A DNA stretch of 52,849 nt from a virus (IMGVR_UViG_3300045988_151019); one strand, 5' to 3'; shown: positions 5,190-41,236, counted from the first letter of the stretch. Translations and numbers: made by a program. Notes: generated from the letters alone by a model not told the origin.

Positions 5190-5206
5190 AGATTTATTAG
5201 AGCAAT
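5190..5206 (-). promoter_or_regulatory. C1-repressor-type operator motif (plus strand AGATTTATTAGAGCAAT)
   Basis: 16/17 match to consensus ATTGCTCTAATAAATTT as I recall it; lies between two leftward genes. Confidence 0.55.
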
Positions 5207-5712
5207 TATTGTTGGTGGAGAAGCGCGTTTTCATACTCCCTGACCATTAACGTAAGTACGCCGTGACTCCTGAAAACACGCGCCACTTCAATCTTATCTT
5301 CCAGCGCGAACGCAATTTTACTTAGACCAATTTTCTTCAGGAGATCAATCTTTGCTGGACCATCATTTCTGTCATCGGTGGCAGGACGCATAGATAGCAA
5401 AGGCTCAGCCCCGTTTGTTACGTACTTCCGCAGCCAGGCTCGTGTTTTATCCCTTGCGATCTCACAGCGCCCGGTTACAAACCAGACCGTGTAAACGTTA
5501 AATAACTGGCGCACCATATCAATAACCGGAGTGATGGGAGTATCGGTGTCACAGGCGAGATTAAACTCGTTCCAGTCCTTTGTTAATGCACCTTTACCTG
5601 GTGGCGGAAGCAAATGCAGTCTGTCTTCAGTTGCCTCTGATATTGTTCCATCAATATCGACTATGACGATATACGGACGTTCCTGGTGTGCGTGTTTATT
5701 GAAAATACTCAA
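5206..5712 (-). CDS. HAD-superfamily phosphatase (possibly the P1 acid phosphatase Pap)
   Basis: Motif I VIVDIDGTI near N-terminus; 168 aa. Confidence 0.55.
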   Translation of the reverse strand: MSIFNKHAHQERPYIVIVDIDGTISEATEDRLHLLPPPGKGALTKDWNEFNLACDTDTPITPVIDMVRQLFNVYTVWFVTGRCEIARDKTRAWLRKYVTNGAEPLLSMRPATDDRNDGPAKIDLLKKIGLSKIAFALEDKIEVARVFRSHGVLTLMVREYENALLHQQ

Positions 5713-5784
5713 ATGCCCTCCTCATTGGACGAAAAAAATGCTGGTGGGCGCACTCCACCAGCATTAAAAGTGACACTGTAACTA

Positions 5785-7047
5785 TCAGCGGACGTAAATA
5801 GTGCCGCCGTTCTCTTTTTCCCATGCATCGCTACGTGCATAGCAAACATCGAGAAGTCTTCTTGCCGCTGTTTCCTCTAAACCCAATTCGACAACCAACT
5901 GCTCATGACGGCGGGTAACCACATCAAACAGGGTATGCAACCCTTTAGTTGCCAGATCATCAATGAATTCCGGTTCGAACGGCAGCTCTGTATCTGCCAA
6001 CATAACCTCTTGCGCCCACTCAACTCGACGGACCAATTCCGGGCGGCGGCTTTCCATCTCTTTACAGATCAATTCATGGAAGAACTCTACCCAACCTTCC
6101 GGCTGGAACTCGCGGAAAATTGCCAACGGCTGGAAGTTTGGCATCAACCATTCGTTGATACGGATATCAATGGCATAGCCCATGTCGCAGCAGAACTGAT
6201 AAGCAAAGTCCAGCTTAGAAACGATATAAGGACGCTCGTTATTGAACTCTTTAGGCGATGAGATCCCATAAGCCAGGAGGCGCGGGAAGAAGGAGATTTG
6301 CCCTAACGTCGGATGAAGTTTGCTTGCAGGGAAACGGCGCTCAGTAATGCCATACATTTCCTTCTTGAGCGTCGCAAATTTGGCATTCTCATTAACCAGC
6401 GCGGTAACCTCTGCTTTTTTATTAGCAAATGCCACGCGCGCTTCGCTTGCATCTTTAATAGTTTTTTTGAGCTGTTGGTTAAGGTCGGCGACCTGCTTAC
6501 GCAGTTCCTGTCGCTCGCTTTTAGCTTTGTTATAGCGTTTCTCAAGGTTAAAAGGATCAAGTTTCATGATCTCTTTATATTGAGATTTTAGCGTTGAAAT
6601 CTGTGAGTTCCGCAGTTCAACCATCGCGGTCATTTCATTGAGTTTTGTTTCCAGCTCAATGCTTATACGTTCGGCATTATCAGCACGCTGGTTGGCGTCA
6701 TGCGTCGCATCGTCGATCGCGTCCTGTTGCTGGCGTTTCAAATGTTCAATTTGTAGCTGAAGCTCTTCAATTTCTTTACCCTTCAGACCGAGATCCAACT
6801 GCATATTTTCAGCTGCATCTACCAGGGAGTTATGGCTATCAGCTTCTGCGTTATAAACATCAATAAGCTGTGCGTGAAGCATCTCCGCTGACTGAACCGC
6901 ATTATCAAAAAAACGCGCTGTGAGGTCATCACAACTAACGCGGCGTTGCGCGGCCCGGATGTTCTGGATAATGGCCGGGATACCGGCATTCAGGACGTCA
7001 GGGATAGATACATTTTCGATTGATTGGTTTTGTGCTGAAGTGATCAT
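5785..7047 (-). CDS. coiled-coil protein with C-terminal globular domain, function unknown
   Basis: ORF track 420 aa; heptad-rich residues 60-230; conserved-looking C-terminal half. Confidence 0.55.
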   Translation of the reverse strand: MITSAQNQSIENVSIPDVLNAGIPAIIQNIRAAQRRVSCDDLTARFFDNAVQSAEMLHAQLIDVYNAEADSHNSLVDAAENMQLDLGLKGKEIEELQLQIEHLKRQQQDAIDDATHDANQRADNAERISIELETKLNEMTAMVELRNSQISTLKSQYKEIMKLDPFNLEKRYNKAKSERQELRKQVADLNQQLKKTIKDASEARVAFANKKAEVTALVNENAKFATLKKEMYGITERRFPASKLHPTLGQISFFPRLLAYGISSPKEFNNERPYIVSKLDFAYQFCCDMGYAIDIRINEWLMPNFQPLAIFREFQPEGWVEFFHELICKEMESRRPELVRRVEWAQEVMLADTELPFEPEFIDDLATKGLHTLFDVVTRRHEQLVVELGLEETAARRLLDVCYARSDAWEKENGGTIYVR

Positions 7048-7048
7048 T

Positions 7049-7267
7049 TCAAAGTTCCGTATTAGCTTGTGCTTCGGTCATTTTTCCTAAGTATGAAGGA
7101 GGAAGGACTACGCAATTTGTATCCAGTCCCTCACCTATGGCAGCCTGTAAAATTCTGGCTAAGGTGAGTCTCTTGTTGCGATACCTGGTGATGACATGCC
7201 TGATACCGCCGGTCGGCGTAACAAAGGCGATCAGCCAGTAGTGATATTTCCGTCGGAATGGCCACAT
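7049..7267 (-). CDS. hypothetical small ORF downstream of operator pair
   Basis: ORF track only; stop 2 nt before next start. Confidence 0.25.
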   Translation of the reverse strand: MWPFRRKYHYWLIAFVTPTGGIRHVITRYRNKRLTLARILQAAIGEGLDTNCVVLPPSYLGKMTEAQANTEL

Positions 7268-7281
7268 AGTGCACCTTGTAG

Positions 7282-7298
7282 ATTGCTCTAATAAAAAA
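7282..7298 (+). promoter_or_regulatory. C1-type operator motif (ATTGCTCTAATAAAAAA)
   Basis: 14/17 consensus match; inverted partner at 7331-7347. Confidence 0.5.
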
Positions 7299-7320
7299 CG
7301 TGATGAGTGTACATCACGTT
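7297..7320. other. perfect palindrome AACGTGATG-agtgtac-CATCACGTT between two operators
   Basis: Read directly; flanked by A-run and T-run, so a possible bidirectional hairpin. Confidence 0.45.
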
Positions 7321-7330
7321 TTAAAAATAT

Positions 7331-7347
7331 GGAATTATTAGAGCAAT
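7331..7347 (-). promoter_or_regulatory. C1-type operator motif (plus strand GGAATTATTAGAGCAAT)
   Basis: Close consensus match in inverted orientation. Confidence 0.5.
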
Positions 7348-7348
7348 A

Positions 7349-8050
7349 TTATTCTGATTCTCGCTCAAAAAATGAGCTGATAAGGGGAAGCCAATCCTCT
7401 GACACTTCGCGAGGTCGCGGTTTGCCGTGGAAAAAGATTATTCGGCAGTCTTTTGGTAATGCCCCATTCCCCCTGGAGTAACGCGCGCTCGCATATTTTG
7501 AACCAGGTTCCACAACATCGGCCTTGTAACTTACAAACCATCCTGGATACAGATCCTGAAATGCTGGTGTATCATCGCCCATAACCTTTCGTAAGAACCC
7601 CTGGTCACCCCAGCACTCAGTAGTGACACAACGAGAAATCCAACCTTCCGGATCTTGCCAGAATGAACTCCAGATATGCGCTTTAACACTATTTGGTATC
7701 CACAGGGCACCGCTGCCACGATATTGTGGATGGTAAAAATCCCTAAGCATGGTGAAGCTGGTTGGTGGATGCTCTAGGATTGGGCGTATATCACCGGCAA
7801 TAACCGTGTCCAAATCCAGATAGAACAGATCATCGGTTATATCCGGTCGGAACAACTCGATTTTCGCCCACCAGCCACGGCACTTTTGCCACTGGTTGAT
7901 CAATGGGACAACTTTGACGCCAGGTACATGTAAACGCTTCAGGTCTGTCAGGCAAATAATTTCATAGCCTTTTGGCAGTTGATTAACCAGCCACTGCACA
8001 TCGGAAGCGTTATAGTCACCACCAGAGCGAAAAACTAAAGCAATCTTCAT
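7349..8050 (-). CDS. GT-A-like (family 8-like) glycosyltransferase candidate
   Basis: [19 protein letters not shown] resembles the GT8 YLDxD(I/V)xxDIxxL nucleotide-sugar motif; 233 aa. Confidence 0.4.
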
Positions 8051-8739
8051 GCTGCACCATCACCTTTCACTTTCATCAATGTCAGGTTTCCGCAAAATAC
8101 GGCACCAGTGTCGATATACTGCTGATTCCAGAATGTCTTCGGGCTTTTCACCGGAGTGTGACCAAAGATAAAACGATCTGCGCCAGAAATTTCGCCACCA
8201 ATATCATCCATCGAATCACTGATACGCTCGCGCGCCCAGACAACGTTGAAAAGCGGCACCTCCTTACCGAATTGGTATTCATTATCCGGATAGTCGGCAT
8301 GGGCTATAACGATAGTTTCTTGCCCGGTGTTCAACTCAATGATATAGGGCAGACGCTTTACCAGCTCCACCAGCGCCCTGGCTAATATTTCCTGATCAGT
8401 GTCCAGCATGAAGAACCATTGTCCGCCATTCATTAGCCAGTTATTCACGTTGCCATCAGGACTTAACGCATCGAGCATCAACCGCTCATGGTTCCCCATC
8501 ACTGCCCTGAACCAGGGCATCTGCAATAGTTCCAGACATTCGACATTTTCAGTACCGCGATCGATAAGGTCGCCGACCGATATCAGTAAATCCTGCGCCG
8601 GGTCAAAATCCACACGATGGAGTTCGGACATCAGTCTGGTGTAGCAACCATGCAGATCACCAACAACCCAGACATTCCTGTATTTGGTACCGTCGATACG
8701 GTGATAAATTGTGGGTGCCATCATGTATTCTTCAGCCAT
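8047..8739 (-). CDS. ppp: Ser/Thr protein phosphatase (lambda PPase / calcineurin-like metallophosphoesterase)
   Basis: GDLHGC, GDLIDRG and GNHE motifs; 230 aa. Confidence 0.8.
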
Positions 8740-9347
8740 TCTTTAAGAGTCATCTGCGGAATACCTCCCATTTTCCCGCATGAAACAACGTCAATCTGTT
8801 CACGCGCAGACTGGAATAACAAAGGCAGGTGACTTAGATTTTTTGGCGTGCCGCCGGAGTGAACGCGTAGTTCTTGCGTAGCGTCAACGCCCACCAGAGC
8901 TACATGTTTGAATCCGATATGGAAAGCCAGGTTCAGAGCACCATATGCACTATTGCCGCTGGCAATTTCATTCTCATCTTCGCAAAGGCCGAAATGTGCG
9001 GACCAGCGCCACGCCCACCACTCGGGAGAATTCGTATTTTTTGGCTCCATGCCGCGTTCAGCCACACGACGGAAGCACAGAACGCCATCTCTGACTTCAC
9101 GTTCTTTAACATCGGGTAGTGCCATGCAATAACAAACACCACGGCGACGGCGGCCACGACCAACGCGCCGCATATTGTCTGGCGATGGATCAAGTGTGAA
9201 AAAATAAGAAGCGCGGTTCAGCCAGTCGATGGCCCCATTGACCGCTATAATCGGCACTCCGCGCGGCGCAACAAAGTTTGCGGCGCTTGGGCCACTGCCG
9301 ACGATAATAACGCGATCACTGCCTCTAAATTTATTCTTGGGAAACAT
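8721..9347 (-). CDS. GSGPS-motif Rossmann protein, paralogue A (DUF115/MptE-like?)
   Basis: [34 protein letters not shown]; paralogous to 9245-9907. Confidence 0.5.
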
Positions 9348-24910: not shown

Positions 24911-24927
24911 ATATTTATTAGAGCAAT
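24911..24927 (-). promoter_or_regulatory. C1-type operator motif (plus strand ATATTTATTAGAGCAAT)
   Basis: 16/17 consensus match in divergent intergenic region. Confidence 0.55.
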
Positions 24928-26717: not shown

Positions 26718-26728
26718 AAGGAAAAACT

Positions 26729-27560: not shown

Positions 27561-27609
27561 TTCGCTTCAACTCTTCACAGAAATCGGTCCTCAGTGGCCG
27601 GTTTTTCAC

Positions 27610-27687: not shown

Positions 27688-27726
27688 GTTGCAGGCCGCG
27701 CCACGTCTGGCTTAGAAGTGTATCGC

Positions 27727-27828: not shown

Positions 27829-27886
27829 AAGCCTGGGTAGTTATCACCACTTATAAAAACTATCCACACAATTCGGAAAAAGTAAT

Positions 27887-28747: not shown

Positions 28748-29030
28748 GTGTGTGCTGGAGGGCAGCTGCATTCAAAAAATGTGTGCTGCCGGGAAGGCTT
28801 GTCCAATTTCCTGTTTTTGATGTGCGCTGGAGGGGGACGCCCCGCAGTTTGCCCAGATTTTCCCTCCAGCACACATCTGTCCATCAGTTTTTCCCTCCAG
28901 CGCACATGTAATTCTCTGTCTTTCCCTCCAGCACACATATTTGATACCAGCGATCCCTCCACAGCACATAATTCAATGCGACTTCCCTCTATCGCACATC
29001 TTAGACTTTTATTCTCCCTCCAGCACACAT
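28748..29030. repeat. incA: nine iterons downstream of repA (three forward, six inverted)
   Basis: Forward at 28748, 28778, 28819; inverted TCCCTCCAGCACACAT-type at 28861, 28892, 28922, 28954, 28984, 29012. Confidence 0.85.
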
Positions 29031-29304
29031 CGAAGCTGCCGGGCAAGCCGTTCTCACCAGTTGATAGAGAGTGAAGCCTGGCTGCCCGTTGAAGCAGGAA
29101 ATCACCAAAATGATTCAGGCTACAACCTGAACATAGAAGAAATCCGCGTCCTTTATACGTGGAGGATGCCAAAGCATGTTGTGACACACTTGGCAAAGGA
29201 GTAAACATGCAGAGAATGCTATGTACAAGCATCTACGCATACATTATTATTTTATGCAGCATTTTTAATTAAATTCAAAAATACAGCATAAAGGATGACT
29301 TTCG

Positions 29305-30501: not shown

Positions 30502-30517
30502 GGAGTAAGAAACCCCC

Positions 30518-31519: not shown

Positions 31520-31522
31520 ACT

Positions 31523-31610
31523 TTCGCCATTCAAATTTCACTATTAACCTACTGTTTTTAAAGTAAATCACTCTAAAATTTCAAGGTGAAATCGCCACGA
31601 TTTCACCTTG
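31523..31610 (+). promoter_or_regulatory. parS centromere (box B hexamers TCGCCA and box A heptamers ATTTCAC/ATTTCAA around an A/T-rich bend site)
   Basis: TCGCCA at 31524; ATTTCAC at 31535; ATTTCAAGGTGAAATCGCCACGATTTCAC at 31577-31605. Confidence 0.7.
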
Positions 31611-31673
31611 GATTTTACCTTCCTCCCCTACTCCCGAAAAAAAATAAAAAAATTGCTTGTCACGAGAAAGTCA

Positions 31674-31694
31674 ACAAGTGACTTTCAATAAAAT
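31674..31694 (+). promoter_or_regulatory. late-promoter-like motif ACAAGTGACT-N5-TAAAAT, inside inverted repeat AGTCA-n5-TGACT
   Basis: Same architecture as 10994, 42525, 51082. Confidence 0.45.
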
Positions 31695-31746
31695 CTCTTC
31701 CGAAAAGGGATTCACACAAGTGCCTTGTGTTTAAGGAAGAGTAAAT

Positions 31747-33452
31747 TGAGTAACTTACGCGAATACCAGAATCGTATTGCAGATATCGCAAAACGCTCTA
31801 AAGCTGTGCTTGGCTGGGCAAGCACTGCGCAGTTCGGTACTGATAACCAATTCATTAAAGATGATGCCGCGCGTGCCGCATCTATCCTTGAAGCTGCACG
31901 TAAAGACCCAATTTTTGCGGGTATCTCTGATAATGCCACCGCTCAAATCGCTACAGCGTGGGCAAGTGCACTGGCTGACTACGCCGCAACACATAAATCT
32001 ATGCCACGTCCGGAAATTCTGGCCTCCTGCCATCAGACGCTGGAAAACTGCCTGATTGAGTCCACCCGCAATAGCATGGACGCCACCAATAAAGCGATGC
32101 TGGAATCAGTCGCGGCAGAGATGATGAGTGTTTCTGACGGGGTTATGCGTCTGCCTTTATTCTTGGCGATGATCCTGCCTGTTCAGTTGGGGGCAGCTAC
32201 CGCTGATGCGTGTACATTCATTCCGGTTACGCGTGACAAGTCCGAAATCTATGAAATCTTTAACGTAGCGGGTTCTTCTTTTGGCTCCTATGCTATTGGT
32301 GATGTTCTGGACATGCAATCCGTTGGCGTGTACAGCCAGTTGCGCCGCCGCTATGTGCTGGTTGCAAGCTCCGACGGCACCAGCAAAACTGCAACCTTCA
32401 AGATGGAAGATGTCGAAGGTCAGAATGTCCCGATTCGCAAAGGTCGCACAAACATCTACGTTAACCGTATTAAGTCTGTTGTTGATAACGGGTCCGGTAC
32501 TCTGCTTCACACATTCAATAACAAAGCAGGCGAACAAATCACTGTTACTTGCTCTTTGAATTACAACGTTGGTCAGATTGCCCTGTCGTTCTCCAAAGCG
32601 CCGGATAAAGGCACTGAGATCGCCATTGAGGCGGAGATCAATATAGAAGCAGCTCCTGAGCTGATCCCACTTATCAACCACGAAATGAAGAGTTACACCC
32701 TGTTCCCAAACCAGTTCGTCATCGCGGCTGAGCACACGGTACAGGCGGCGTATGAAGCACAGCGTGAATTTGGTCTGGATCTTGGCTCCCTACAGTTCCG
32801 CACCCTGAAGGAATACCTGTCCCATGAGCAAGATATGCTTCGTCTTCGTATCATGATTTGGCGAACTCTTGCGACCGACTCCTTTGATATTGCACTACCA
32901 GCTAACCAGACCTTTGATGTGTGGGCAACCATCATTCGAGGCAAATTCCAGACGGTATATCGCGGTATTATTGAGCGTGTTAAATCTTCTGGTGCGATGG
33001 GGATGTATGCCGGTGCTGATGCGGCATCTTTCTTCAAACAATTGCCGAAGGATTTCTTCCAGCCAGCAGAAGATTACATCCAGACCCCATACGTCCACTA
33101 CATTGGCACTCTGTTCGGCAACGTCAAAGTGTTCGAAGTACCAGAAGGTATTTGTACGAACCTGACCGCCGACGGTATCCAGTTCAGCCCAATGGATGTG
33201 CTGTGCTACGTCCGTGATGAAAATCCGGGCAAAGCGGGCTTCGTAACTGGTGATGCAGTCCCGGCTGTCCCATTCCAGCATCCGACCACCCCGGCACTAG
33301 TCAACCGAACCACTCTGTGGGGTTCGGCTATCAACGATATGCATCCACGCAACGGTGCTGACTACTTCACCCGTGTAACTCTGACTATGGCAAAAAATGG
33401 CGGAATTAACTTCCTGACCGGTAACACGATTGATGCTGGTGACTCTGAGTAA
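31747..33452 (+). CDS. putative major head protein precursor (TTG start after AAGGAAGAG; ORF track ATG at 31725)
   Basis: About 568 aa; helical N-terminal region could be a cleavable scaffold-like domain; followed by hairpin. Confidence 0.45.
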
Positions 33453-33478
33453 TCAGGGGAAGCTCTCCGTTTAACATA

Positions 33479-33497
33479 GCGCCCCCGCGCGGGGCGC
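33479..33497 (+). other. GC-rich hairpin GCGCCCC-cgcgc-GGGGCGC after head gene (no T-run)
   Basis: Read directly. Confidence 0.4.
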
Positions 33498-33512
33498 ATA
33501 ACAGGGAAAGTT

Positions 33513-35102
33513 ATGTCTCAATATTCAATTCAACAGTCATTAGGTAATGCATCCGGCGTCGCGGTTAGCCCGATCAATGCCGATGCGACGTTATCTACCG
33601 GTGTTGCATTAAATAGCAGCTTGTGGGCTGGTATTGGCGTATTTGCGCGTGGCAAGCCGTTTACTGTTCTTGCGGTTACTGAGTCCAATTACGAAGATGT
33701 TCTTGGCGAACCGCTGAAGCCGTCTTCCGGCTCACAGTTTGAACCAATTCGCCATGTGTACGAAGCTATTCAGCAAACGTCTGGTTATGTTGTCCGTGCT
33801 GTTCCGGATGATGCGAAGTTCCCGATTATTATGTTCGATGAATCAGGCGAACCGGCTAACAGTGCGTTGCCATACGGTTCTGAAATTGAACTTGATAGCG
33901 GCGAAGCCTTTGCTATCTACGTTGATGATGGTGATCCGTGTATTTCACCTACCCGTGAGTTAACCATCGAAACGGCAACAGCGGACAGCGCGGGTAATGA
34001 ACGCTTCCTCTTAAAACTGACCCAGACGACTTCGCTCGGTGTGGTAACGACCCTGGAGACACACACTGTGTCTTTGGCGGAAGAAGCGAAAGATGACATG
34101 GGCCGCTTGTGTTATCTGCCTACGGCTCTGGAAGCCCGTTCTAAATATCTGCGTGCGGTTGTTAATGAAGAGCTGATTTCTACAGCGAAAGTAACAAATA
34201 AAAAATCGGTGGCATTCACTGGCGGTACCAATGGCGATCAGTCGAAAATCTCAACCGCTGCTTACCTGCGTGCGGTTAAAGTGCTGAATAATGCGCCGTA
34301 CATGTACACCGCTGTTCTTGGCCTGGGCTGCTATGACAATGCGGCTATCACCGCATTAGGTAAAATCTGTGCAGATCGCCTGATTGATGGCTTCTTTGAT
34401 GTCAAACCGACATTAAGGTACGCAGAAGCACTAACAGCTGTTGAGGGTACCGGTTTACTTGGTACCGATTATGTAAGCTGTTCTGTCTATCACTACCCGT
34501 TCTCCTGCAAAGACAAATGGACCCAATCCCGTGTGGTCTTCGGTCTGTCTGGCGCGGCGTATGCGGCGAAAGCTCGTGGCGTCAAGAAAAACTCTGATGT
34601 CGGCGGTTGGCATTACTCACCGGCTGGTGAAGAACGTGCCGTCATTGCTCGTGCGTCAATTCAACCGCTGTATCCGGAAGATACCCCGGACGAAGAAGCA
34701 ATGGTCAAGGGCCGTCTCAATAAAGTATCTGTTGGCACCTCTGGCCAGATGATCATCGACGATGCTTTAACTTGCTGCACGCAGGATAACTATCTGCACT
34801 TCCAGCACGTCCCATCCCTGATGAATGCAATCAGTCGTTTCTTTGTCCAGTTAGCCCGACAGATGAAGCATAGCCCGGACGGTATTACTGCGGCTGGCCT
34901 GACTAAAGGGATGACCAAACTTTTAGATCGCTTTGTCGCCTCCGGCGCTCTGGTGGCTCCTCGTGATCCCGATGCTGACGGTACAGAACCGTATGTGCTG
35001 AAAGTTACGCAGGCGGAATTCGATAAATGGGAAGTAGTCTGGGCCTGCTGCCCGACTGGCGTAGCCCGTCGTATCCAGGGCGTACCGCTGCTTATTAAGT
35101 AA
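33513..35102 (+). CDS. contractile tail sheath protein candidate
   Basis: 529 aa; N-terminal GIGVFARGKPFTVLAVTESNYEDVLGEP resembles sheath N-domains; followed by tube-sized genes. Confidence 0.5.
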   Translation: MSQYSIQQSLGNASGVAVSPINADATLSTGVALNSSLWAGIGVFARGKPFTVLAVTESNYEDVLGEPLKPSSGSQFEPIRHVYEAIQQTSGYVVRAVPDDAKFPIIMFDESGEPANSALPYGSEIELDSGEAFAIYVDDGDPCISPTRELTIETATADSAGNERFLLKLTQTTSLGVVTTLETHTVSLAEEAKDDMGRLCYLPTALEARSKYLRAVVNEELISTAKVTNKKSVAFTGGTNGDQSKISTAAYLRAVKVLNNAPYMYTAVLGLGCYDNAAITALGKICADRLIDGFFDVKPTLRYAEALTAVEGTGLLGTDYVSCSVYHYPFSCKDKWTQSRVVFGLSGAAYAAKARGVKKNSDVGGWHYSPAGEERAVIARASIQPLYPEDTPDEEAMVKGRLNKVSVGTSGQMIIDDALTCCTQDNYLHFQHVPSLMNAISRFFVQLARQMKHSPDGITAAGLTKGMTKLLDRFVASGALVAPRDPDADGTEPYVLKVTQAEFDKWEVVWACCPTGVARRIQGVPLLIK

Positions 35103-35111
35103 GGGAATACA

Positions 35112-35927
35112 ATGAGCAAAAACTTTTTTCAATCCGGGGCATTTTTGGGGAATGGACTGTCCCGTTTCGCTTTGAACTCTGATCCTGTGCAGTTGATGGA
35201 GTCTGCCCGAGCAAGCGCCGAACCGCCAACAGATCCGGTTATTAATAATAATCCGGAACCGGCGGCACAGACTAACGATAACGTTCCATCTGCCCCGGCT
35301 CCAGAGCAAATCCTGGAAGGGAAAGACGGTAAAGAATGGACCGTCGAACAGGCGCACCAGATGATTCTGGAAGCTGCAAATCGAAGTGCTATGCAGAATG
35401 CGTTGAGTGATGCGGCCGACGCCGTTTTCTCCTGGGCTGATAGCGGTGATCTGACTTTCGACTCCCTTGATGGTTTCGTTCAGGCTATCGCTGGTATCTC
35501 TGATGACGACGACTCCGAAGTTACAGAAGAACAGGACGATGCCTATAACGAAGCATGGGCAAATGTTGCTGACTTCCTCGCAGCATGCGGTGTAGATGAT
35601 GACCTGATCGAAGCACTGGCTGACGATGAAGACGACGACGCTGCTGCTGATGTTGGTGCCTCTATCGCTGGTTTAGATAGCGACGACCGCGACGAACTGG
35701 AAGCGGCGTTTGTTGTTGCTGGCACTTCTGATGAAATGCTGACTGAAGCATTTAAGAAGGTTGTTCGTAACGGTGAGATCAAACTCATCCGTAAACGCCT
35801 GCGTAAAAAACGTCTGACTGCGGCTCAAAAATCGGCGCTGAAAAAAGCGCGTCGAAAAGCCCAGACCGGCGCGGCAAAACTTGCCCGCAAAAAGTCAATG
35901 AAACTGCGCCGTAAGCGCCTTGGCTAA
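35112..35927 (+). CDS. acidic protein with poly-basic C-terminal tail
   Basis: 271 aa; acidic core, last 45 aa about 50% K/R. Confidence 0.45.
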   Translation: MSKNFFQSGAFLGNGLSRFALNSDPVQLMESARASAEPPTDPVINNNPEPAAQTNDNVPSAPAPEQILEGKDGKEWTVEQAHQMILEAANRSAMQNALSDAADAVFSWADSGDLTFDSLDGFVQAIAGISDDDDSEVTEEQDDAYNEAWANVADFLAACGVDDDLIEALADDEDDDAAADVGASIAGLDSDDRDELEAAFVVAGTSDEMLTEAFKKVVRNGEIKLIRKRLRKKRLTAAQKSALKKARRKAQTGAAKLARKKSMKLRRKRLG

Positions 35928-35934
35928 AGGAGGA

Positions 35935-35952
35935 GGCCGGAGAACTCCGGCC
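35935..35952 (+). terminator. hairpin GGCCGGAG-aa-CTCCGGCC followed by TTT
   Basis: Read directly. Confidence 0.4.
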
Positions 35953-35962
35953 TTTAACTTGA

Positions 35963-36544
35963 ATGGCACCTATACCTTATGGGGTTTACAGCCAGGCTGA
36001 CGGTGTATCGCCATTTCTGAAAGTTACTTTAACGAACTCTCAGTACCAGGTTACCGGATATATCAGCCAGGGGGCAGCAATGAACATGGCCCAGAATTGG
36101 GAAGCGCCGTTTACCGGTATGTCCATGGGGTCTGTTGCTGGTGCTTTCAGTGGTTTTGCGCAGGTTGGTACTGAAACAACGTCGGTGGCCCGTTGGAACA
36201 GCTTAATGGTTTGGGAGGGGGGAACACCGCCGACTTTCACGCTGCCTGTAACTTTCATCGCTTTGTTTGACCCATTCACGGAGGTTTCAGGAGCTATCGC
36301 CGCATTGTCAGCGATGATTAGCCCGGAACTTAAAGATGCCAGCATTGGTGGTCGAATACCGGAGCGTGTGACGCTAAACATTGGTCGCCGGATCAACATC
36401 ATTGATGTCGCTATCCAGGACATAAGTTTCGATCTCGATGCGCCCAGGGACAGCAATGGGCATTTCCTGAAAAACACCGTCAACCTCCAGTTGACCGGTT
36501 CTTCGATATATAACAGCTCCGATATTGTTCGGGCGTTCCAGTAA
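35963..36544 (+). CDS. putative tail structural protein (193 aa)
   Basis: ORF track; Gly/Ala-rich. Confidence 0.45.
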   Translation: MAPIPYGVYSQADGVSPFLKVTLTNSQYQVTGYISQGAAMNMAQNWEAPFTGMSMGSVAGAFSGFAQVGTETTSVARWNSLMVWEGGTPPTFTLPVTFIALFDPFTEVSGAIAALSAMISPELKDASIGGRIPERVTLNIGRRINIIDVAIQDISFDLDAPRDSNGHFLKNTVNLQLTGSSIYNSSDIVRAFQ

Positions 36545-36555
36545 AAGGATTTTAT

Positions 36556-37065
36556 ATGGGGCACAATAACACTAAGGGAAACCGTAAATTTATTAAGGGC
36601 CGCTATACTGCCAACGCGGCCAAAGGCGAACGACTGGTATCTTCTGAATTCCAGCTCACTTTTGCAGGCCATGAAGATATCAGCGTACTGGTTCGCACGT
36701 CGCAAATTCCTGAAATGACCCGCGAGGATGTGGAGGACTATGGTCCGAATGGTGTGAAGTTCAACCAGCACGGTCCAATTCGAAACTCTGGGGAAATCCA
36801 GGTCCAGTGCGTGGAGACTATCGAAGGCGATATTCTTCAGTTCATTAAAGATCGCATTGCGGCGAAGGACTATGTTGATATCACGATGGCTGCGACCCCT
36901 GAATCCAAATCTTCCGGGGTTAACGCTGTGACAAAAGCTGCTACAACAATTGAAATGTTGGACTGCAAAATCTACAGTGATGCAATCGACTTTAGTACCG
37001 AAGATGTGACTGCCGCTGTGCGCCCGTCACTTCGTATCGTCTACAACTGGATTGAGTGGGATTAA
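36556..37065 (+). CDS. tail tube protein candidate
   Basis: 169 aa; size and C-terminal IVYNWIEWD resemble myovirus tube proteins. Confidence 0.45.
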   Translation: MGHNNTKGNRKFIKGRYTANAAKGERLVSSEFQLTFAGHEDISVLVRTSQIPEMTREDVEDYGPNGVKFNQHGPIRNSGEIQVQCVETIEGDILQFIKDRIAAKDYVDITMAATPESKSSGVNAVTKAATTIEMLDCKIYSDAIDFSTEDVTAAVRPSLRIVYNWIEWD

Positions 37066-37084
37066 GAGTCATCCCTTGTATTTT

Positions 37085-37107
37085 AAAGCTCCTTCGGGAG
37101 CTTTTTT
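37085..37107. terminator. bidirectional terminator AAAGCTCC-ttcg-GGAGCTTT + T-run
   Basis: Read directly; serves the convergent structural operon and hok mRNA. Confidence 0.55.
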
Positions 37108-37181
37108 ATTTGGAGAGGAAAGGGTGCATTGAGGATACCTGACACACGAAGAGTGGCGGAGATCTCTCCCCGCCAGGTCTC

Positions 37182-37337
37182 TTACCTTTCAGATTCGTAG
37201 GCTGTGAAGACAGTGACCTCCGTCTGGCTGGTTCGGATTCGTACCTCGCAGAGGTCTTTCCTCGTTACCAGTGCCGTCACAATGACGGTTAAACAGATGA
37301 CGATCAGAGCGATTAACATCGCTTTTTGCTGCTTCAT
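37182..37337 (-). CDS. hok: Hok/Gef-family type I toxin (51 aa)
   Basis: MKQQKAMLIALIVICLTVIVTALVTRKDLCEVRIRTSQTEVTVFTAYESER, near-identical to chromosomal HokC/Gef and HokD/RelF as I recall them. Confidence 0.85.
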   Translation of the reverse strand: MKQQKAMLIALIVICLTVIVTALVTRKDLCEVRIRTSQTEVTVFTAYESER

Positions 37338-37395
37338 AGCCTGCTTCTCCTTGACCTTTTGGTCGGTAAGAGGCTAATCTACGTATGCTAAGCAT
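37189..37395 (-). CDS. mok: Mok-like overlapping reading frame (modulation of killing)
   Basis: 68-aa ORF overlapping hok in another frame, as in hok/mok/sok loci. Confidence 0.5.
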   Translation of the reverse strand: MLSIRRLASYRPKGQGEAGYEAAKSDVNRSDRHLFNRHCDGTGNEERPLRGTNPNQPDGGHCLHSLRI

Positions 37396-37450
37396 AGATA
37401 TGGCCTCAGATTAATGTTAAGCGTCTTGCAGGACGCGTAATGTTATCTGG
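37349..37450 (+). ncRNA. putative Sok-like antisense RNA and its promoter (boundaries approximate)
   Basis: Plus-strand TTGACC-18 nt-TAATCT promoter at 37349-37377, antisense to the mok start region. Confidence 0.3.
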
Positions 37451-37518
37451 GGCTTTCTTCTATCTGCTTTTCGGGTAATGCCTGAAGCAGATAGCCTCAA
37501 GCACCCGCAACGATTGTA

Positions 37519-37764
37519 TCAATGTCTGGCTTTTTTTCTATAGAAATCACCTGGAAGGGTGAATATCCACATCAGAAGAAATGTTGCAGCAAACATGATC
37601 CCTAATGGCCAGACCGCGCCAAAGAAAATCCATACTAAGATCTTCTCTGCTTGTTCTTTGCGGTCGATATCGACAAGCATTTTTCGGCTGATCATGTATA
37701 CACAGAAGCCAATACAAACATATCCTGCAAAAGCGATCGCTAACTGTAAAAAATCAGATTGCAT
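37519..37764 (-). CDS. small two-helix membrane protein downstream of repL (start ATG at 37764)
   Basis: ORF track frame 37519-37845; two hydrophobic helices. Confidence 0.4.
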   Translation of the reverse strand: MQSDFLQLAIAFAGYVCIGFCVYMISRKMLVDIDRKEQAEKILVWIFFGAVWPLGIMFAATFLLMWIFTLPGDFYRKKARH

Positions 37765-37814
37765 CTCCGACCTCAAACTGAAAACGCCAGGTAACTCCAG
37801 ATTAGAGCAATCTA

Positions 37815-38660
37815 TCACCCTCTGAATCCTGCCGGTATACCCCATTGTTCGTTATCTTTATTTTTGGCTAAAACCGCATTAAGAGCTTCGTTTACCGTCA
37901 TGCAATGCGGCAGATTATCGAAGTTTGATACCCCGCCAATATCAGGAGAACGCTTGTTCTTCAGGTAAGCATATTTCCGCGCTGCCGCCTCTACTTTCTG
38001 CTTGAACTCATGTTTTTGTGCGCGTTTTTTGGATAACCGCAGATTGTCAGCCTTTGCTTTTGTCTCAGCGATCCATGAAGTCAATTTTTTGAGTCTGATC
38101 GTTCCGGCACCGCCGGAAACTGATCTTTTTGTTTTTTTAACTTGTGACTTCTTATTCTTTATTGCCACGTCATCCTGACATGGGGAGGGGGTATCATTTT
38201 GACATGGGGGTGTGGATAAAAAATTAAATAAAGCCAATGTCTTAGCGAGAACAGCTTTAACCTTGGTTGCCGCTGAAGAGATCTTTAATTTGCTTTCAAT
38301 CAGCGCATTTTTGGCTTGTTGTGCGAAGGCCAAAAAGGATGGTGTAAACCGGTACAGGTTAGCGCGACGTTCACGGTGATCGCCGATAACAATCTCTACA
38401 GATAGAATTCCTTTGTTTACAGCTTCACGGAATGCACGAACGACGGTTGATTGGCTATAACCAGTTTCTGCCGCGATCAGGCGGTGGGGCTTGTGAATGA
38501 AGTATTCACTGGTTGTTGCCGCGAGATTTGCACATTGCGACAGGATATGCCCGGCGCTACGGGATAGACCGGAGTGTGTTACAAAGAAGGCCAATTCATA
38601 GCCAGAAAAAGTAAAATCGCTCATCGTTATACAGCTCAGGAAAGTGACTTTAGCCAGCAT
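37815..38660 (-). CDS. repL: lytic (L-replicon) replication initiation protein RepL
   Basis: 281 aa; downstream of kilA in a C1-operator-controlled operon. Confidence 0.7.
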   Translation of the reverse strand: MLAKVTFLSCITMSDFTFSGYELAFFVTHSGLSRSAGHILSQCANLAATTSEYFIHKPHRLIAAETGYSQSTVVRAFREAVNKGILSVEIVIGDHRERRANLYRFTPSFLAFAQQAKNALIESKLKISSAATKVKAVLAKTLALFNFLSTPPCQNDTPSPCQDDVAIKNKKSQVKKTKRSVSGGAGTIRLKKLTSWIAETKAKADNLRLSKKRAQKHEFKQKVEAAARKYAYLKNKRSPDIGGVSNFDNLPHCMTVNEALNAVLAKNKDNEQWGIPAGFRG

Positions 38661-38689
38661 TACAATGCTGGTGGTTCTTACTACGTCTG

Positions 38690-39466
38690 TTAGCGCGTTG
38701 CCGCGACAGGTACCAGCACACCAGCATCAAGCAATCGCTTCATCAGCCACTGCTGACCTTTGCCGGTTATACGAGTCGTGAAAGAAATCCTGCTTCCATT
38801 GCTTGTATCGATCACGGTTTCTTTAAGGGTGAAATACCCACGGGATATGTATTCTTGTTTGGGGACGTTCCTGCGTTCACCGGTTGCGATCAGAATTCCG
38901 TTATCACGCAACCAGGTGAAGAGATAGTTTTGGCCCAGGCCGAGCACTTTGGCATAGTTGCCGATTAGAACCCCGCTGGCGGTAGCAACGCGTTCGGCGA
39001 ATTCGACTTTAGGTGCATCCATCAGCATTTTTTGCTCCAGCCGTTGCTTTTGCTCTGCCAGGTCAGCAGCCAAACGGAGAGCTTCTGGGAGGCTCTTCGG
39101 AATAGCAGGTTGTAATCTTCCGGCTCGATAGTCGATAAATGTCTGGTTTACCTTCAGCCGAAACGCGGGAGAAATCCAGCCTGCGTACTCCACTGCGAGC
39201 AATTCATGGGCAAAAGTGCCGCCGCCACGGCCTTCGAACGAAACTATGCAATTCTGCATAGTTTCTTTTTCAAGCTCTTCGATGAGCTGTTTGGCTGACA
39301 GCGTTCTTAGCCATTGAGCTGGCGCTTTATGGGCACCGAGTCCGCTCGCTCTGTGTAGAGCATTAAGGTTGTAACGGCCAGCGCGGTCGGTCGTAATTTC
39401 AACACCACAAATAACGGGCAGAGTGGTTGAAGGATCGACATTTTGATGAAGGTTTGATATATTCAT
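38690..39466 (-). CDS. kilA: KilA (KilA-N domain / antirepressor-like C-terminus)
   Basis: 258 aa; C-terminal half paralogous to ant C-terminus (LPEALRLAA-LAEQK...GKGQQWL). Confidence 0.7.
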   Translation of the reverse strand: MNISNLHQNVDPSTTLPVICGVEITTDRAGRYNLNALHRASGLGAHKAPAQWLRTLSAKQLIEELEKETMQNCIVSFEGRGGGTFAHELLAVEYAGWISPAFRLKVNQTFIDYRAGRLQPAIPKSLPEALRLAADLAEQKQRLEQKMLMDAPKVEFAERVATASGVLIGNYAKVLGLGQNYLFTWLRDNGILIATGERRNVPKQEYISRGYFTLKETVIDTSNGSRISFTTRITGKGQQWLMKRLLDAGVLVPVAATR

Positions 39467-39559
39467 ATCCGCATTGAATGTTTGTTGAATTTTTTCTCCA
39501 AATTTGCATCAACCTTCAATCACCAGCTCGAAATGGTGATTCTTTGCACTTAGAAAACG

Positions 39560-39576
39560 AAATTTATTAGAGCAAA
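39560..39576 (-). promoter_or_regulatory. C1-type operator motif (plus strand AAATTTATTAGAGCAAA) upstream of kilA-repL
   Basis: 16/17 consensus match. Confidence 0.55.
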
Positions 39577-39654
39577 TTTTTCTGACTCGATCCAGATCGG
39601 GTTGGACGATCTGCTCAGAAACCTGCCAGTTTGCTGGCAGGTTTTTTTCTTTTG

Positions 39655-40689
39655 TTAACCTATTGCTACTGGTTTTAACAAACCAGCATCAAGTAGCTTG
39701 CGAGTTAACCACTGCTGGCCTTTACCCGTTAATTGTGGCGTCAGCCGTATCTGATAGCCATTTTCATCATCCAGCACCACTTCTTTCACCGTGAAATACC
39801 CGGCGTTAATGTACTGCTGGCGCGGTACGTTTTTGCGCGCACCAAAAGCCATGAGAATGCCGTTCTGGCGCAACCATGAGAAAAGGGCGTTTTGCTTAAG
39901 TCCAACGACCTTTGCAAAGTTACCGATCAGGATTCCATTAGCCACTGATACCCGGTCGGCAAAATCGACTTTAGGTGCTGCGGCCACCAGCTGTTGTTCC
40001 AGATGCATTTTCTGTTCTGCCAACTCGGCAGCCAGGCGTAGGGCTTCTGGTAATGTTTGGGGGATCGATGGGGTAGGGGAGTTTGCCTGCTGTAATTCTT
40101 CCAGTTTGTCGATCAGCGAACGGCGGACCGCTTTTGACTCGCGCGCGGCAACTCGCAGGGCTTGTTTGTAGGTCATGGTTATAATATCTATTTCTGCGCC
40201 GTTTTTTTGACCTACGAAAATTTCGTAGGTTTCTCCTTCAAGCTCATCCTTAACTCTGGCAATGAAATCATTGTTGCGAACTGGTTTTTCGCTACATAAT
40301 TTCCGTGCCTCATTGACCATCTTCAACAATGTTTGGCTGTCGATTGTGTCTCCGGTGTTGGGGATGACATTCAGGGCTGGTGCTGGCGTAGCTGAAGCAA
40401 CAGGTGCTGGTTTTTCAACATTTAAATTATTACCGGTCATTCTATGTGCCTCCTTTCTCATTTCTGCTGCCACTGTTGCGTAACGTAGACGTCCTTGTTC
40501 AATCAAATAATCCCTGATCTCGGCTATCAGTAGCCTGTTGATCACAGCCTTATCTGTTCGGGTATAAAAACGCCTGGTTATCATGAAATAGTTGGCAATT
40601 GCGCCGGGGATCTCCCGTGTCGGCATACAGATTGTATGCAAGGCGATCGCTTCGGCTATTTCATTACGGGTGACGAGAGGTGTTTTCAT
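39655..40689 (-). CDS. ant: antirepressor Ant (Ant1 with in-frame Ant2)
   Basis: 344 aa; shares C-terminal module with KilA; ATGA-coupled to icd. Confidence 0.75.
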   Translation of the reverse strand: MKTPLVTRNEIAEAIALHTICMPTREIPGAIANYFMITRRFYTRTDKAVINRLLIAEIRDYLIEQGRLRYATVAAEMRKEAHRMTGNNLNVEKPAPVASATPAPALNVIPNTGDTIDSQTLLKMVNEARKLCSEKPVRNNDFIARVKDELEGETYEIFVGQKNGAEIDIITMTYKQALRVAARESKAVRRSLIDKLEELQQANSPTPSIPQTLPEALRLAAELAEQKMHLEQQLVAAAPKVDFADRVSVANGILIGNFAKVVGLKQNALFSWLRQNGILMAFGARKNVPRQQYINAGYFTVKEVVLDDENGYQIRLTPQLTGKGQQWLTRKLLDAGLLKPVAIG

Positions 40690-40907
40690 AAACCCCCCTG
40701 AACGTCGGCAGAGAAGGGGAGGCTCCAGTAACTAAGTGAATTGCGCGAGTTAGTTGAAAAACGGGCAGTAAAAATGCAGGGGCCATCAGGCAATTGAGAG
40801 CGTGCTTCGTCTTCTGTTGCAGCGATAACGAAGTGATAGTGGTGTTTTTTACAGGAATAGAAACGCCAGATGAATTCTTGGCGTGCGCAAGGATTGGCAT
40901 TAACCAT
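40686..40907 (-). CDS. icd: Icd-like small protein (cell-division interference), coupled to ant
   Basis: 73-aa ORF ending in ATGA overlap with ant start. Confidence 0.55.
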   Translation of the reverse strand: MVNANPCARQEFIWRFYSCKKHHYHFVIAATEDEARSQLPDGPCIFTARFSTNSRNSLSYWSLPFSADVQGGL

Positions 40908-40909
40908 AG

Positions 40910-41200
40910 TTACGGCCTCGTAAGTTGATAAACAACCTGCGACCCGCTGCTAAACAGGTGGCAGGACGTGACGGGGTTAGCAGACTGGCACTTACGAAAC
41001 CAGCAGGCCGAAGCCTCCCCATCACGCCCCACCATAATTCGGGCGTAACGTGGTTTACGGACACAAAAATACCGCAATATCGGAAATCTGCGGTTGTCCG
41101 CGTAAGTATTCAGGCTGCTAAACCCGGTCGCAGAATTTGCTACGACGGCGGAACTATAAGCCTGAACGATTAAAAGGTCAATATGATGCGAAAAGATAGC
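40910..41200 (-). ncRNA. immI leader region expected to hold the c4 antisense RNA and its target repeats (boundaries not resolved)
   Basis: No protein-coding signal; repeated GCTGCTAAAC at 40946 and 41113; sits between operator and icd. Confidence 0.3.
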
Positions 41201-41219
41201 ATTCGCGACTTAAAAATAC

Positions 41220-41236
41220 AAATTTATTAGAGCATT
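41220..41236 (-). promoter_or_regulatory. C1-type operator motif (plus strand AAATTTATTAGAGCATT)
   Basis: 16/17 consensus match. Confidence 0.55.

What the first reader, a model, noticed from the sequence alone, without database searches (positions are those of the whole stretch)
5190..41236. Network of at least nine C1-operator-like 17-mers, including an inverted pair around a perfect palindrome
Matches to ATTGCTCTAATAAATTT occur at 5190, 7282, 7331 (inverted), 10955, 21389 (perfect), 24911, 39560 and 41220, with a half-site at 37801. The pair at 7282/7331 brackets the palindrome AACGTGATGagtgtacCATCACGTT, and the perfect site overlaps the dmt stop just ahead of the tRNA-ban unit. Most of the accessory enzyme genes would therefore be under direct lysogenic repressor control, with a possible looping or roadblock arrangement at 7.3 kb.
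Basis: partly seen in the sequence, partly recalled or inferred. Interest (0 to 1): 0.4.

Follow-up and report, generated by a model that had tools for sequence, protein, structure and literature searches.

The report
Known phage P1 repressor operator network
The repeated 17-base motifs are the long-known binding sites of the phage P1 C1 lysogeny repressor, sitting where the P1 reference genome already annotates them, so the finding is correct but ordinary.

Summary
The window is a P1-like phage-plasmid, about 95-100% identical to P1 in blocks and in reverse orientation.

Chance is excluded: 9 matches against 0.34 expected. A matrix built only from P1 operators outside the window ranks the ten full sites 1-10. 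The network is also conserved position by position in Cronobacter phage JK004, which is 70-77% identical.

The palindrome between Op86a and Op86b is best read as an RNA hairpin followed by a U6 tract on the coding strand, that is, an intrinsic terminator after pmgQ. Its U-tract is the A-rich tail of Op86b. Pairing is kept through two compensatory double changes and through G.U changes that are valid on that strand only. The same fusion of terminator and operator tail recurs at an unrelated JK004 locus.

Looping at 7.3 kb is untested. A roadblock role for Op86b is plausible.

Verdict: already known, low interest.

The parts
5190..5206 (-). C1 operator Op88 / OpmgT (ATTGCTCTAATAAATCT). It overlaps the -35 hexamers of the predicted promoters P2pmgT and P1pmgT.
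   Evidence: Exact copy of the P1 site at 84293-84309. The promoter hexamers are intact. A positional equivalent exists in JK004 at 64882-64898.
7282..7298 (+). C1 operator Op86b / OpmgRb (ATTGCTCTAATAAAAAA). It is inverted relative to pmgR and ends 15 bp upstream of the pmgR ATG. Its A6 tail is the U-tract of the hairpin on the - strand.
   Evidence: Exact copy of the P1 site at 82201-82217. 16 of 17 bases are conserved in JK004 and in S. arizonae plasmid CP053320. It carries only 1 variant site among 27 haplotypes.
7293..7322 (-). RNA hairpin plus U6 tract: 5' arm 7322-7312, loop 7311-7306, 3' arm 7305-7295, and six consecutive U at 7298-7293, of which four also form the base of the stem. 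Read as the intrinsic terminator after pmgQ (stop codon at 7349-7351).
   Evidence: Folding energy -13.4 kcal/mol, z-score -5.7. All 11 pairs stay paired in 3 lineages, with 2 double compensatory changes and 3 G.U changes. In JK004 the fold is stable only on this strand (-14.0 against -5.8). The simple terminator scan missed it.
7331..7347 (-). C1 operator Op86a / OpmgRa (ATTGCTCTAATAATTCC). It begins directly after the pmgQ stop codon (one base between) and overlaps the -35 of the predicted promoter PpmgR.
   Evidence: Exact copy of the P1 site at 82152-82168. It is also annotated in P7. The first 15 bases (ATTGCTCTAATAATT) are conserved in JK004 and CP053320.
10048..10064 (+). C1 operator Op83 / Oppp (TATGCACTAATTAATTT), just downstream of the predicted promoter PpmgN.
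   Evidence: It differs from the P1 site at 79435-79451 at one base. It ranks 10th in the independent matrix scan, score 16.9. A positional equivalent exists in JK004 at 69155-69171.
10955..10971 (+). C1 operator Op82 / O26 (ATTGCACTAATAATTTT), in the divergent gene 26 / pmgL control region.
   Evidence: Exact copy of the P1 site at 78528-78544. The flanks are 100% identical to P1.
21378..21394 (+). C1 operator Op72b / Obanb (ATTACACTAATAAATTT), the second half of the bivalent ban operator.
   Evidence: Exact copy of the P1 site at 68678-68694. It overlaps Op72a by 6 bp.
21389..21405 (-). C1 operator Op72a / Obana, a perfect match to the consensus. It overlaps the dmt stop codon and the -35 of P1ban.
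24911..24927 (-). C1 operator Op68 / Odmt (ATTGCTCTAATAAATAT), abutting the -35 of Pdmt (uhr-hrdC-dmt operon).
   Evidence: Exact copy of the P1 site at 65145-65161. A positional equivalent exists in JK004 at 24822-24838.
37795..37811 (-). Op55 / Orlf remnant (ATTGCTCTAAT|CTGGAG). Only the 11-base left part is kept. Homology to P1 ends exactly after it, directly downstream of the repL stop codon.
   Evidence: The matrix score of 8.6 is at background level. This is the majority allele in the family, found in 64 of the 77 loci that carry the 11-mer.
39560..39576 (-). C1 operator Op53 / OrepL (TTTGCTCTAATAAATTT). It contains the -10 of PkilA and controls kilA-repL, the lytic replicon.
   Evidence: Exact copy of the P1 site at 49810-49826.
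41220..41236 (-). C1 operator Op51 / Oc4 (AATGCTCTAATAAATTT), abutting the -35 of P2c4 (c4-icd-ant immunity operon).
   Evidence: Exact copy of the P1 site at 48140-48156. Rfam finds the C4 RNA and its a1b1 targets just downstream.

Best explanation
These are the operators of the phage P1 C1 lysogeny repressor, in a P1-like phage-plasmid. C1 is encoded outside this window. It binds each asymmetric 17-mer, and most of the sites overlap or abut a sigma-70 promoter. In the prophage this silences the lytic replicon (Op53), the c4-icd-ant operon (Op51), the dmt operon (Op68), the tRNA-ban unit (bivalent Op72ab), the pmgN-ppp-pmgQ operon (Op83), pmgR-pmgS-pap (Op86a/b), the gene 26/pmgL region (Op82) and the variable cargo operon behind Op88.

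At 7.3 kb the two convergent operators flank an intrinsic terminator that ends the pmgQ transcript. Op86a covers the -35 of the predicted pmgR promoter. Op86b lies on the terminator's U-tract, 15 bp ahead of the pmgR start codon, where bound C1 would block initiation or read-through into pmgR, an essential head-completion gene.

Shown here: the sequences, their identity with annotated operators, their conservation, and hairpin covariation. Inferred: C1 occupancy in this element, terminator activity, and the roadblock role.
For: Nine matches with up to 3 mismatches against 0.34 expected. One-to-one identity with the annotated P1 operators Op51, 53, 68, 72a, 72b, 82, 86a, 86b and 88; Op83 differs at one base and Op55 is truncated. 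The same pair is annotated in P7. A matrix built from 7 operators outside the window ranks the ten sites 1-10, with scores of 16.9-25.7; the maximum score per shuffled sequence averaged 14.6. All annotated promoter hexamers are intact. JK004, at 70-77% nucleotide identity, has operator-like sites at the equivalent positions of Op88, Op86a/b, Op83 and Op68, upstream of ban, and at Op94, Op99 and Op2. Among 27 close-relative haplotypes of the Op86 segment, only 3 variant sites fall in the 34 operator bases, against 35 in 24 flanking bases. The consensus and the count of 22 operators are confirmed in PMC8546580. The citation for Op21/68/88 is in PMC1934351. For the hairpin: energy -13.4 kcal/mol with z-score -5.7, 100% pairing in 3 lineages with 2 compensatory doubles, strand-specific stability in JK004, and an invariant U6 tract. 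A GC-rich hairpin plus T7 fused to an operator tail recurs at JK004 13242-13258. pmgR is essential (PMC9024508).
Against: c1 and coi are absent from the window, so a cognate repressor is assumed from family membership. No binding data exist for this element. Whether Op86a/b, Op83, Op82 and Op55 were ever footprinted I could not establish, because the P1 genome paper is not held. PpmgR is only a predicted promoter: it matches 7 of 12 consensus positions, the stringent scan finds no promoter in 7100-7500, and its -10 is not conserved in JK004. The generic terminator scan does not call the hairpin. The covariation rests on three lineages, and 60 of 500 shuffles reach the observed score. Four single variants among close relatives break a stem pair. 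The Op55 remnant scores at background and may not bind C1.
Confidence: 0.93

Rival explanations
1. The Op86a/Op86b pair works mainly through C1-C1 contact: a small DNA loop or cooperative binding across 49 bp that clamps the pmgR promoter. On this view the palindrome is incidental or serves only as a flexible spacer.
For: The 32-bp spacing between the two operators is invariant in all lineages examined. C1-mediated looping between Op99 sites has been reported for P1 (my recollection of Heinzel et al. 1994, J Biol Chem; not retrievable here). The two sites are convergent, like the halves of the bivalent operators Op72ab and Op99ab.
Against: The spacer is not neutral. Its substitutions are compensatory, and the G.U changes are valid on one strand only, which indicates selection at the RNA level. 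A centre-to-centre distance of 49 bp is about 4.7 helical turns, so the sites are not in phase. A fixed spacing is equally required by a conserved hairpin. A lone operator fused to a terminator, with no partner site nearby, occurs in JK004.
Confidence: 0.15
2. The palindrome AAAACGTGATG-N6-CATCACGTTTT is a DNA binding site for a dimeric regulator other than C1, from the host or the phage.
For: It is a perfect 11-bp inverted repeat with a 6-bp centre in the window and in P1.
Against: In JK004 the DNA symmetry is lost at three positions, yet RNA pairing on the - strand is retained. Two arm positions changed on both sides, so no specific recognition sequence is conserved.
Confidence: 0.04
3. The 17-mers are chance or compositional matches in AT-rich intergenic DNA and have no regulatory role.
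For: The operator sequence resembles promoter elements (TTGCTC, TAATAA), which are common in intergenic DNA.
Against: There are 9 matches against 0.34 expected. The sites are identical to curated operators. They are conserved at equivalent positions while flanks drift to about 70% identity. Variation within the operators is depleted.
Confidence: 0.01

Closest known systems
Bacteriophage P1/P7 C1 repressor operators (Op sites; Oc4, OrepL, Orlf, Odmt, Obanab, O26, Oppp, OpmgRa/b and OpmgT in GenBank AF234172)
   Same: Same 17-bp asymmetric consensus, same positions, same neighbouring promoters and genes. Nine sites are base-for-base identical to P1.
   Different: Op83 differs at its first base. 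Op55 keeps only its 11-base left part and is followed by a hok/sok cassette instead of rlfA/rlfB. The operon behind Op88 carries different cargo. These are known variable regions of P1-like phage-plasmids (PMC9603915).
Bivalent C1 operators Op72ab (ban) and Op99ab (c1)
   Same: Op86a and Op86b are convergent (tail to tail), like the two halves of a bivalent operator. Op72ab itself is present at 21378-21405.
   Different: In bivalent operators the two 17-mers overlap by 6 bp, giving 11 bp centre to centre. Op86a and Op86b are separated by 32 bp that encode a conserved hairpin.
Mycobacteriophage L5/L1 repressor 'stoperators': multiple asymmetric operators that also stop transcript elongation
   Same: Many dispersed asymmetric sites for a single repressor. 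A site placed within a transcription unit rather than at a promoter (Op86b on a terminator U-tract, Op83 downstream of PpmgN) would act on elongating polymerase (PMC1934351, for the L5 property).
   Different: The repressor family and motif (13 bp, GGTGGMTGTCAAG) are unrelated. An elongation block by P1 C1 at Op86b is only inferred here.
Rho-independent (intrinsic) terminators
   Same: The hairpin at 7295-7322(-) has an 11-bp stem, a 6-nt loop and a U6 tract just after a stop codon.
   Different: The stem is AT-rich, with 4 G-C pairs out of 11 in the window. The U-tract doubles as the tail of a repressor operator. It was not called by the simple scan.

Membership tests
P1-type C1 repressor operator | Asymmetric 17-bp match to ATTGCTCTAATAAATTT, with the left part (TGC.CTAAT) essentially invariant | tested here: met
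   Ten sites have 0-4 mismatches, and an independent matrix gives them ranks 1-10. The Op55 remnant keeps only the left 11 bases and scores at background.
P1-type C1 repressor operator | Positional correspondence with operators defined in P1/P7 | tested here: met
   One-to-one mapping onto the protein_bind features of AF234172. P7 annotates the same pair at pmgR.
P1-type C1 repressor operator | Overlap with, or close proximity to, a promoter of the controlled operon | tested here: met
   All promoter hexamers annotated in P1 around Op88, 86a, 83, 82, 72, 68, 53 and 51 are intact in the window. Several of these promoters, including PpmgR, are only predictions, and the stringent scan finds none in 7100-7500.
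P1-type C1 repressor operator | A cognate C1 repressor encoded by the same element | tested here: inconclusive
   tblastn with P1 C1 and Coi finds nothing in the window. By synteny the immC region lies beyond the window's low-coordinate end, since window position 1 corresponds to roughly P1 89.5 kb and c1 is at 93.2-94.1 kb. JK004 does carry a c1 homologue next to Op99-like sites.
P1-type C1 repressor operator | Physical binding by C1 and repression in vivo | not testable with these tools
   This needs EMSA, footprinting, ChIP or reporter assays.
Bivalent C1 operator (applied to the 7282/7331 pair) | Two inverted 17-mers overlapping by 6 bp | tested here: not met
   Op86a and Op86b are 32 bp apart. 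The feature is met by Op72ab at 21378-21405.
Intrinsic terminator (hairpin 7295-7322, - strand) | A stable stem-loop followed immediately by a U-tract, downstream of a stop codon on the same strand | tested here: met
   Energy -13.4 kcal/mol, U6 tract, and the pmgQ stop codon 27 nt upstream of the stem. The generic scan did not call it, probably because the maximally extended stem uses up four of the U residues.
Intrinsic terminator (hairpin 7295-7322, - strand) | Pairing maintained by covariation on the transcribed strand | tested here: met
   All 33 cells are paired in 3 lineages, with 2 double changes and 3 G.U changes. Slid controls give 36-73% paired. In JK004 the fold is stable on the - strand only. 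Power is low because there are only 3 sequences.
Intrinsic terminator (hairpin 7295-7322, - strand) | Transcript 3' ends at the U-tract | not testable with these tools
   This needs Term-seq or in vitro transcription.
C1-mediated DNA loop (as reported for Op99 sites) | Simultaneous C1 occupancy of two separated operators with helical-phase dependence | not testable with these tools
   Only the spacing can be read: 49 bp centre to centre, invariant.

The most novel reading that the evidence does not exclude
Op86b is not just a second promoter operator. It is built into an intrinsic terminator, with its A6 tail serving as the terminator's U-tract, so that bound C1 turns a moderate, leaky terminator into a tight stop in the lysogen, and loss of C1 lets late or early read-through from the pmgN-pmgQ operon reach the essential pmgR. 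This would be a repressor-gated terminator, akin to the mycobacteriophage 'stoperators'. The same fusion at an unrelated JK004 locus suggests a reusable design in the P1 family.
Probability: 0.22. Interest if true: 0.35.

Novelty: already known. Interest (0 to 1): 0.1.

Why it matters
The finding matters little in itself. It re-identifies the C1 operator regulon of phage P1, which was mapped in the late 1980s and is annotated base by base in the reference genome. Its practical value is annotation transfer. It shows that this P1-like phage-plasmid keeps the full operator set even though five cargo regions have been swapped, so the swapped cargo behind Op88 is predicted to be prophage-silent. 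The region after the truncated Op55, now a hok/sok cassette, probably escapes C1 control. The one modestly new point is that the palindrome between Op86a and Op86b behaves as a strand-specific RNA hairpin whose U-tract is the operator's own tail. That gives a concrete, testable model for why pmgR has two operators.

Tried and rejected
1. Łobocka et al. 2004 (PMC523184) is not held. Searches for Op names and for C1 looping found nothing specific on Op86. I therefore could not establish whether Op86a/b were ever footprinted or whether a terminator is listed there.
2. My first matrix included Omat on the strand given in the record, which is the wrong strand. I redid it.
3. The generic promoter and terminator scan of 7100-7500 found nothing. 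For the terminator I judge this to be an artefact of the scan's stem-extension rule. For PpmgR it is a real caution.
4. The genome-contig scan with PmgS returned only two loci, both 99% identical. The 80 viral-contig loci kept were all at least 99% identical at protein level, so diverged relatives had to come from the annotated phage and plasmid collections. Only three lineages were available for covariation.
5. I considered whether operators act as recombination junctions for cargo exchange. The Op55 junction falls exactly after the 11-mer, and upstream and downstream alleles occur in three of the four possible combinations. However, only 3 of about 13 homology breakpoints lie within 250 bp of an operator (4956, 37801, 41472). 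By my rough estimate that is not beyond chance, and operators sit at operon boundaries anyway. I left this as a note.
6. Extra operator-like 17-mers at 1044-1060(-), 16834-16850(+) and 21406-21422(+) score at or below the maximum scores seen in shuffled sequence and violate invariant positions. I rejected them as operators.


Full report
IDENTITY OF THE WINDOW. A 7-kb piece of the window matches phage P1 at 99% identity on the reverse strand, and 18 of the 21 matching phage records cover at least 80% of the piece. A full comparison shows P1-homologous blocks at window 4956-18575, 19672-26721, 27595-37107, 37801-41472 and 42525-52267, at 95.7-99.2% identity. These are interrupted by segments with no P1 match at 1-4955, 18576-19671, 26722-27594, 37108-37800 and 41473-42524. 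The interruptions coincide with the published 'highly variable regions' of P1-like phage-plasmids: pmgT-to-humD, tciABC, repA-upfA, rlfAB and simABC (PMC9603915). The window is therefore an ordinary member of the P1 phage-plasmid family.

THE OBSERVATION. A scan for ATTGCTCTAATAAATTT allowing up to 3 mismatches finds 9 sites where 0.34 are expected; none of 100 shuffles had more than 2. The ninth, at 21378-21394(+), overlaps the perfect site by 6 bp. The 'half-site at 37801' is ATTGCTCTAAT at 37811-37801 on the - strand. The arms are 11 bp, AAAACGTGATG and CATCACGTTTT, around a 6-bp centre.

WHAT THE SITES ARE. The deposited P1 record AF234172 annotates 11 'phage repressor C1' binding sites in the stretch equivalent to the window. 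Extracting those 17-mers and searching for them in the window gives exact copies for nine:
- Op51/Oc4 = 41220-41236(-)
- Op53/OrepL = 39560-39576(-)
- Op68/Odmt = 24911-24927(-)
- Op72a = 21389-21405(-)
- Op72b = 21378-21394(+)
- Op82/O26 = 10955-10971(+)
- Op86a = 7331-7347(-)
- Op86b = 7282-7298(+)
- Op88/OpmgT = 5190-5206(-)
Op83/Oppp is present at 10048-10064(+) with one base changed. Op55/Orlf survives only as its first 11 bases, and P1 homology ends exactly there. The P7 record annotates the same two C1 sites at the pmgR position. Every promoter hexamer that the P1 record places on or beside these operators is unchanged in the window.

INDEPENDENT TESTS. To avoid circularity I built a weight matrix from seven P1 operators that lie outside the window's range: Olpa, Oc1a, Oc1c, Oc1d, Oc1e, Oref and Omat. 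Its ten best hits in the window are exactly the ten full operators, with scores of 16.9-25.7. In 200 Markov-shuffled sequences the maximum score averaged 14.6, with a 95th percentile of 18.3. Ten window sites score 13 or more, against 1.5 expected. The Op55 remnant scores 8.6, which is background.

As a phylogenetic footprint I scanned the whole genome of Cronobacter phage JK004, whose alignable DNA is only 70-77% identical to the window. It carries about 20 operator-like sites. Those whose flanks align to the window or to P1 fall at the equivalents of Op88, Op86a, Op86b, Op83, Op68, upstream of ban, Op94, the Op99 cluster next to a c1 homologue, and the ref region. Among 80 near-identical relatives, which give 27 haplotypes of the Op86 segment, only 3 variant sites fall in the 34 operator bases, against 35 in the 24 flanking bases.

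THE 7.3-KB ARRANGEMENT. On the coding (window -) strand the order is:
- pmgQ stop codon (7351-7349)
- Op86a (7347-7331)
- 8 bases
- hairpin: 5' arm 7322-7312, loop 7311-7306, 3' arm 7305-7295
- six consecutive U (7298-7293)
- the rest of Op86b (down to 7282)
- a Shine-Dalgarno-like AAGGTG
- pmgR ATG (7267)
The U-tract of the hairpin is thus the complement of Op86b's unusual AAAAAA tail, which accounts for that operator's three mismatches to the consensus.

In JK004 and in a Salmonella arizonae plasmid (CP053320) both operator cores and the 32-bp spacing are unchanged, while the flanks diverge. The stem stays fully paired in all three lineages. One G-C pair became A-U, one A-U pair became G-C, and three further changes give G.U pairs. 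Sliding the 3' partners by 1-3 columns drops pairing to 36-73%. With only three sequences the shuffle control is not significant: 60 of 500 shuffles reach the observed score. I therefore treat this as supportive rather than as proof.

The G.U changes are informative about strand. The JK004 hairpin folds at -14.0 kcal/mol on the - strand but only -5.8 on the + strand, and only the - strand keeps a U-run after the stem. Among close relatives, 9 of 13 haplotype-level stem variants keep pairing as G.U on the - strand and 4 break one pair. The simple terminator scan does not report the element. The likely reason is that when the stem is extended through the four A-U pairs, too few U residues remain in the tail window.

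I conclude, at about 70% confidence, that the palindrome is an intrinsic terminator, or at least a structured RNA element, at the end of the pmgN-ppp-pmgQ transcript. The predicted PpmgR promoter (-35 TTGCTC inside Op86a, -10 TAAAAC at 7323-7318) would start transcription inside the hairpin, so its own transcripts would escape termination. However, this promoter is weak and only predicted, and its -10 is not conserved in JK004.

A second example strengthens the design argument. At JK004 13242-13258, a locus not homologous to Op86, an operator with the same A-rich tail (ATTGCTCTAATAAAAAA) is directly preceded on the opposite strand by a GC-rich hairpin (CCCCGGC-cact-GCTGGGG) and T7.

MECHANISM. 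Shown here: the sequences are the P1 operators and are under purifying selection. Established elsewhere: C1 binds such 17-mers, and the corepressor Lxc strengthens binding (PMC8546580). Op68 controls the P1 Dam methylase (citation in PMC1934351). Inferred: in this element C1, supplied from outside the window, represses the same operons as in P1.

At pmgR, Op86a would occlude the promoter. Op86b, sitting on the terminator's U-tract and 15 bp before the start codon, would block residual initiation or read-through. pmgR is essential for head completion (PMC9024508), so tight silencing in the lysogen is plausible. 'Looping' is neither supported nor excluded: the 49-bp centre-to-centre distance is about 4.7 helical turns, and the invariant spacing is explained equally well by the hairpin.

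COMPARISON WITH WHAT IS KNOWN, AND NOVELTY. This is the P1/P7 C1 operator regulon itself, not merely something that resembles it. All sequence-level defining features are met. Repressor binding cannot be tested here, and the repressor gene lies outside the window. The Op86 pair is not a bivalent operator in the Op72ab sense, because the two sites are 32 bp apart rather than overlapping by 6 bp. The nearest functional analogy for an operator acting on elongating polymerase is the mycobacteriophage L5 'stoperator' system (PMC1934351). The finding is already known. The only mildly new element is the strand-specific hairpin whose U-tract doubles as an operator tail. I could not check whether the P1 genome paper already lists a terminator there. 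The deposited record shows no terminator feature in this region.

VERDICT. Novelty: already known. Interest: 0.1.

Noticed in passing
window 37122-37518 (- strand); sok at 37332-37506: P1's rlfA/rlfB genes downstream of Op55 are replaced by a hok/mok/sok-type type I toxin-antitoxin cassette. Rfam gives sok 114.9 bits, and the cassette is 86-90% identical to hokW/mokW of lambdoid and Stx phages. It sits behind the truncated operator and so probably escapes C1 control.
   Followed up: partly
window 37795-37811 and loci L091-L170: Only two alleles follow the Op55 11-mer ATTGCTCTAAT in the 77 IMG/VR relatives (of 80 loci examined) that carry it. CTGGAG... is the window type (64 loci) and TATAAC... 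is the P1 type (13 loci). The sequences diverge exactly at the end of the 11-mer, and upstream and downstream alleles occur in three of the four possible combinations. This hints at recombination within or at the operator.
   Followed up: partly
window 1-4955 (- strand ORFs 3551-4429, 1783-2490, 1496-1819): The operon behind Op88 carries non-P1 cargo: a PAPS-reductase-domain protein, an Ead/Ea22-like protein and a DUF4752 protein. Homology to P1 pmgT ends about 55 bp into the gene, at window 4956.
   Followed up: partly
window 5134-5169: A strong hairpin (CATGCCGC-N5-GCGGCATG, about -16 to -18 kcal/mol) lies 20-60 bp downstream of Op88, in the leader of the pmgT-like operon. It has a long T-run (TTTTTATTTT) only on the + strand, which is antisense to the operon, so it looks like a terminator against incoming antisense transcription.
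   Followed up: no
window 41306-41980 (+) and 42042-42518 (+): The simABC superimmunity genes are replaced by two ORFs. The first has a weak PTP-like phytase match, just below the Pfam cutoff. Its JK004 homologue lies next to the terminator-operator fusion at JK004 13242-13258.
   Followed up: no
L089 (JK004) 29881-29925: In JK004 the ban gene is preceded by two direct operator-like sites 28 bp apart and about 80 bp upstream of the gene. P1 instead has an overlapping inverted bivalent operator about 2.6 kb upstream. So C1 control of ban is kept while the architecture and the tRNA/tci insert differ.
   Followed up: no
L004 (P1 AF234172) 2628-2645: The record gives Omat (Op2b) on the - strand, but the operator-like sequence CATGCACTAATAAATAT reads on the + strand. 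This is an apparent strand slip in the deposited annotation.
   Followed up: partly
window 21406-21422 (+), 16834-16850 (+), 1044-1060 (-): These are sub-threshold operator-like 17-mers. The first is created by window-specific substitutions immediately upstream of Op72a and forms a short inverted repeat with it (TAGCAAT|ATTGCTC). All three violate invariant positions and score at or below shuffle maxima.
   Followed up: partly
window 18494-18566, 20570-20642, 20648-20720 (-); 40954-41039 and 41107-41159 (-): Rfam confirms three tRNAs in the ban operon, and the C4 antisense RNA with its a1b1 target region downstream of Op51, as in P1.
   Followed up: no
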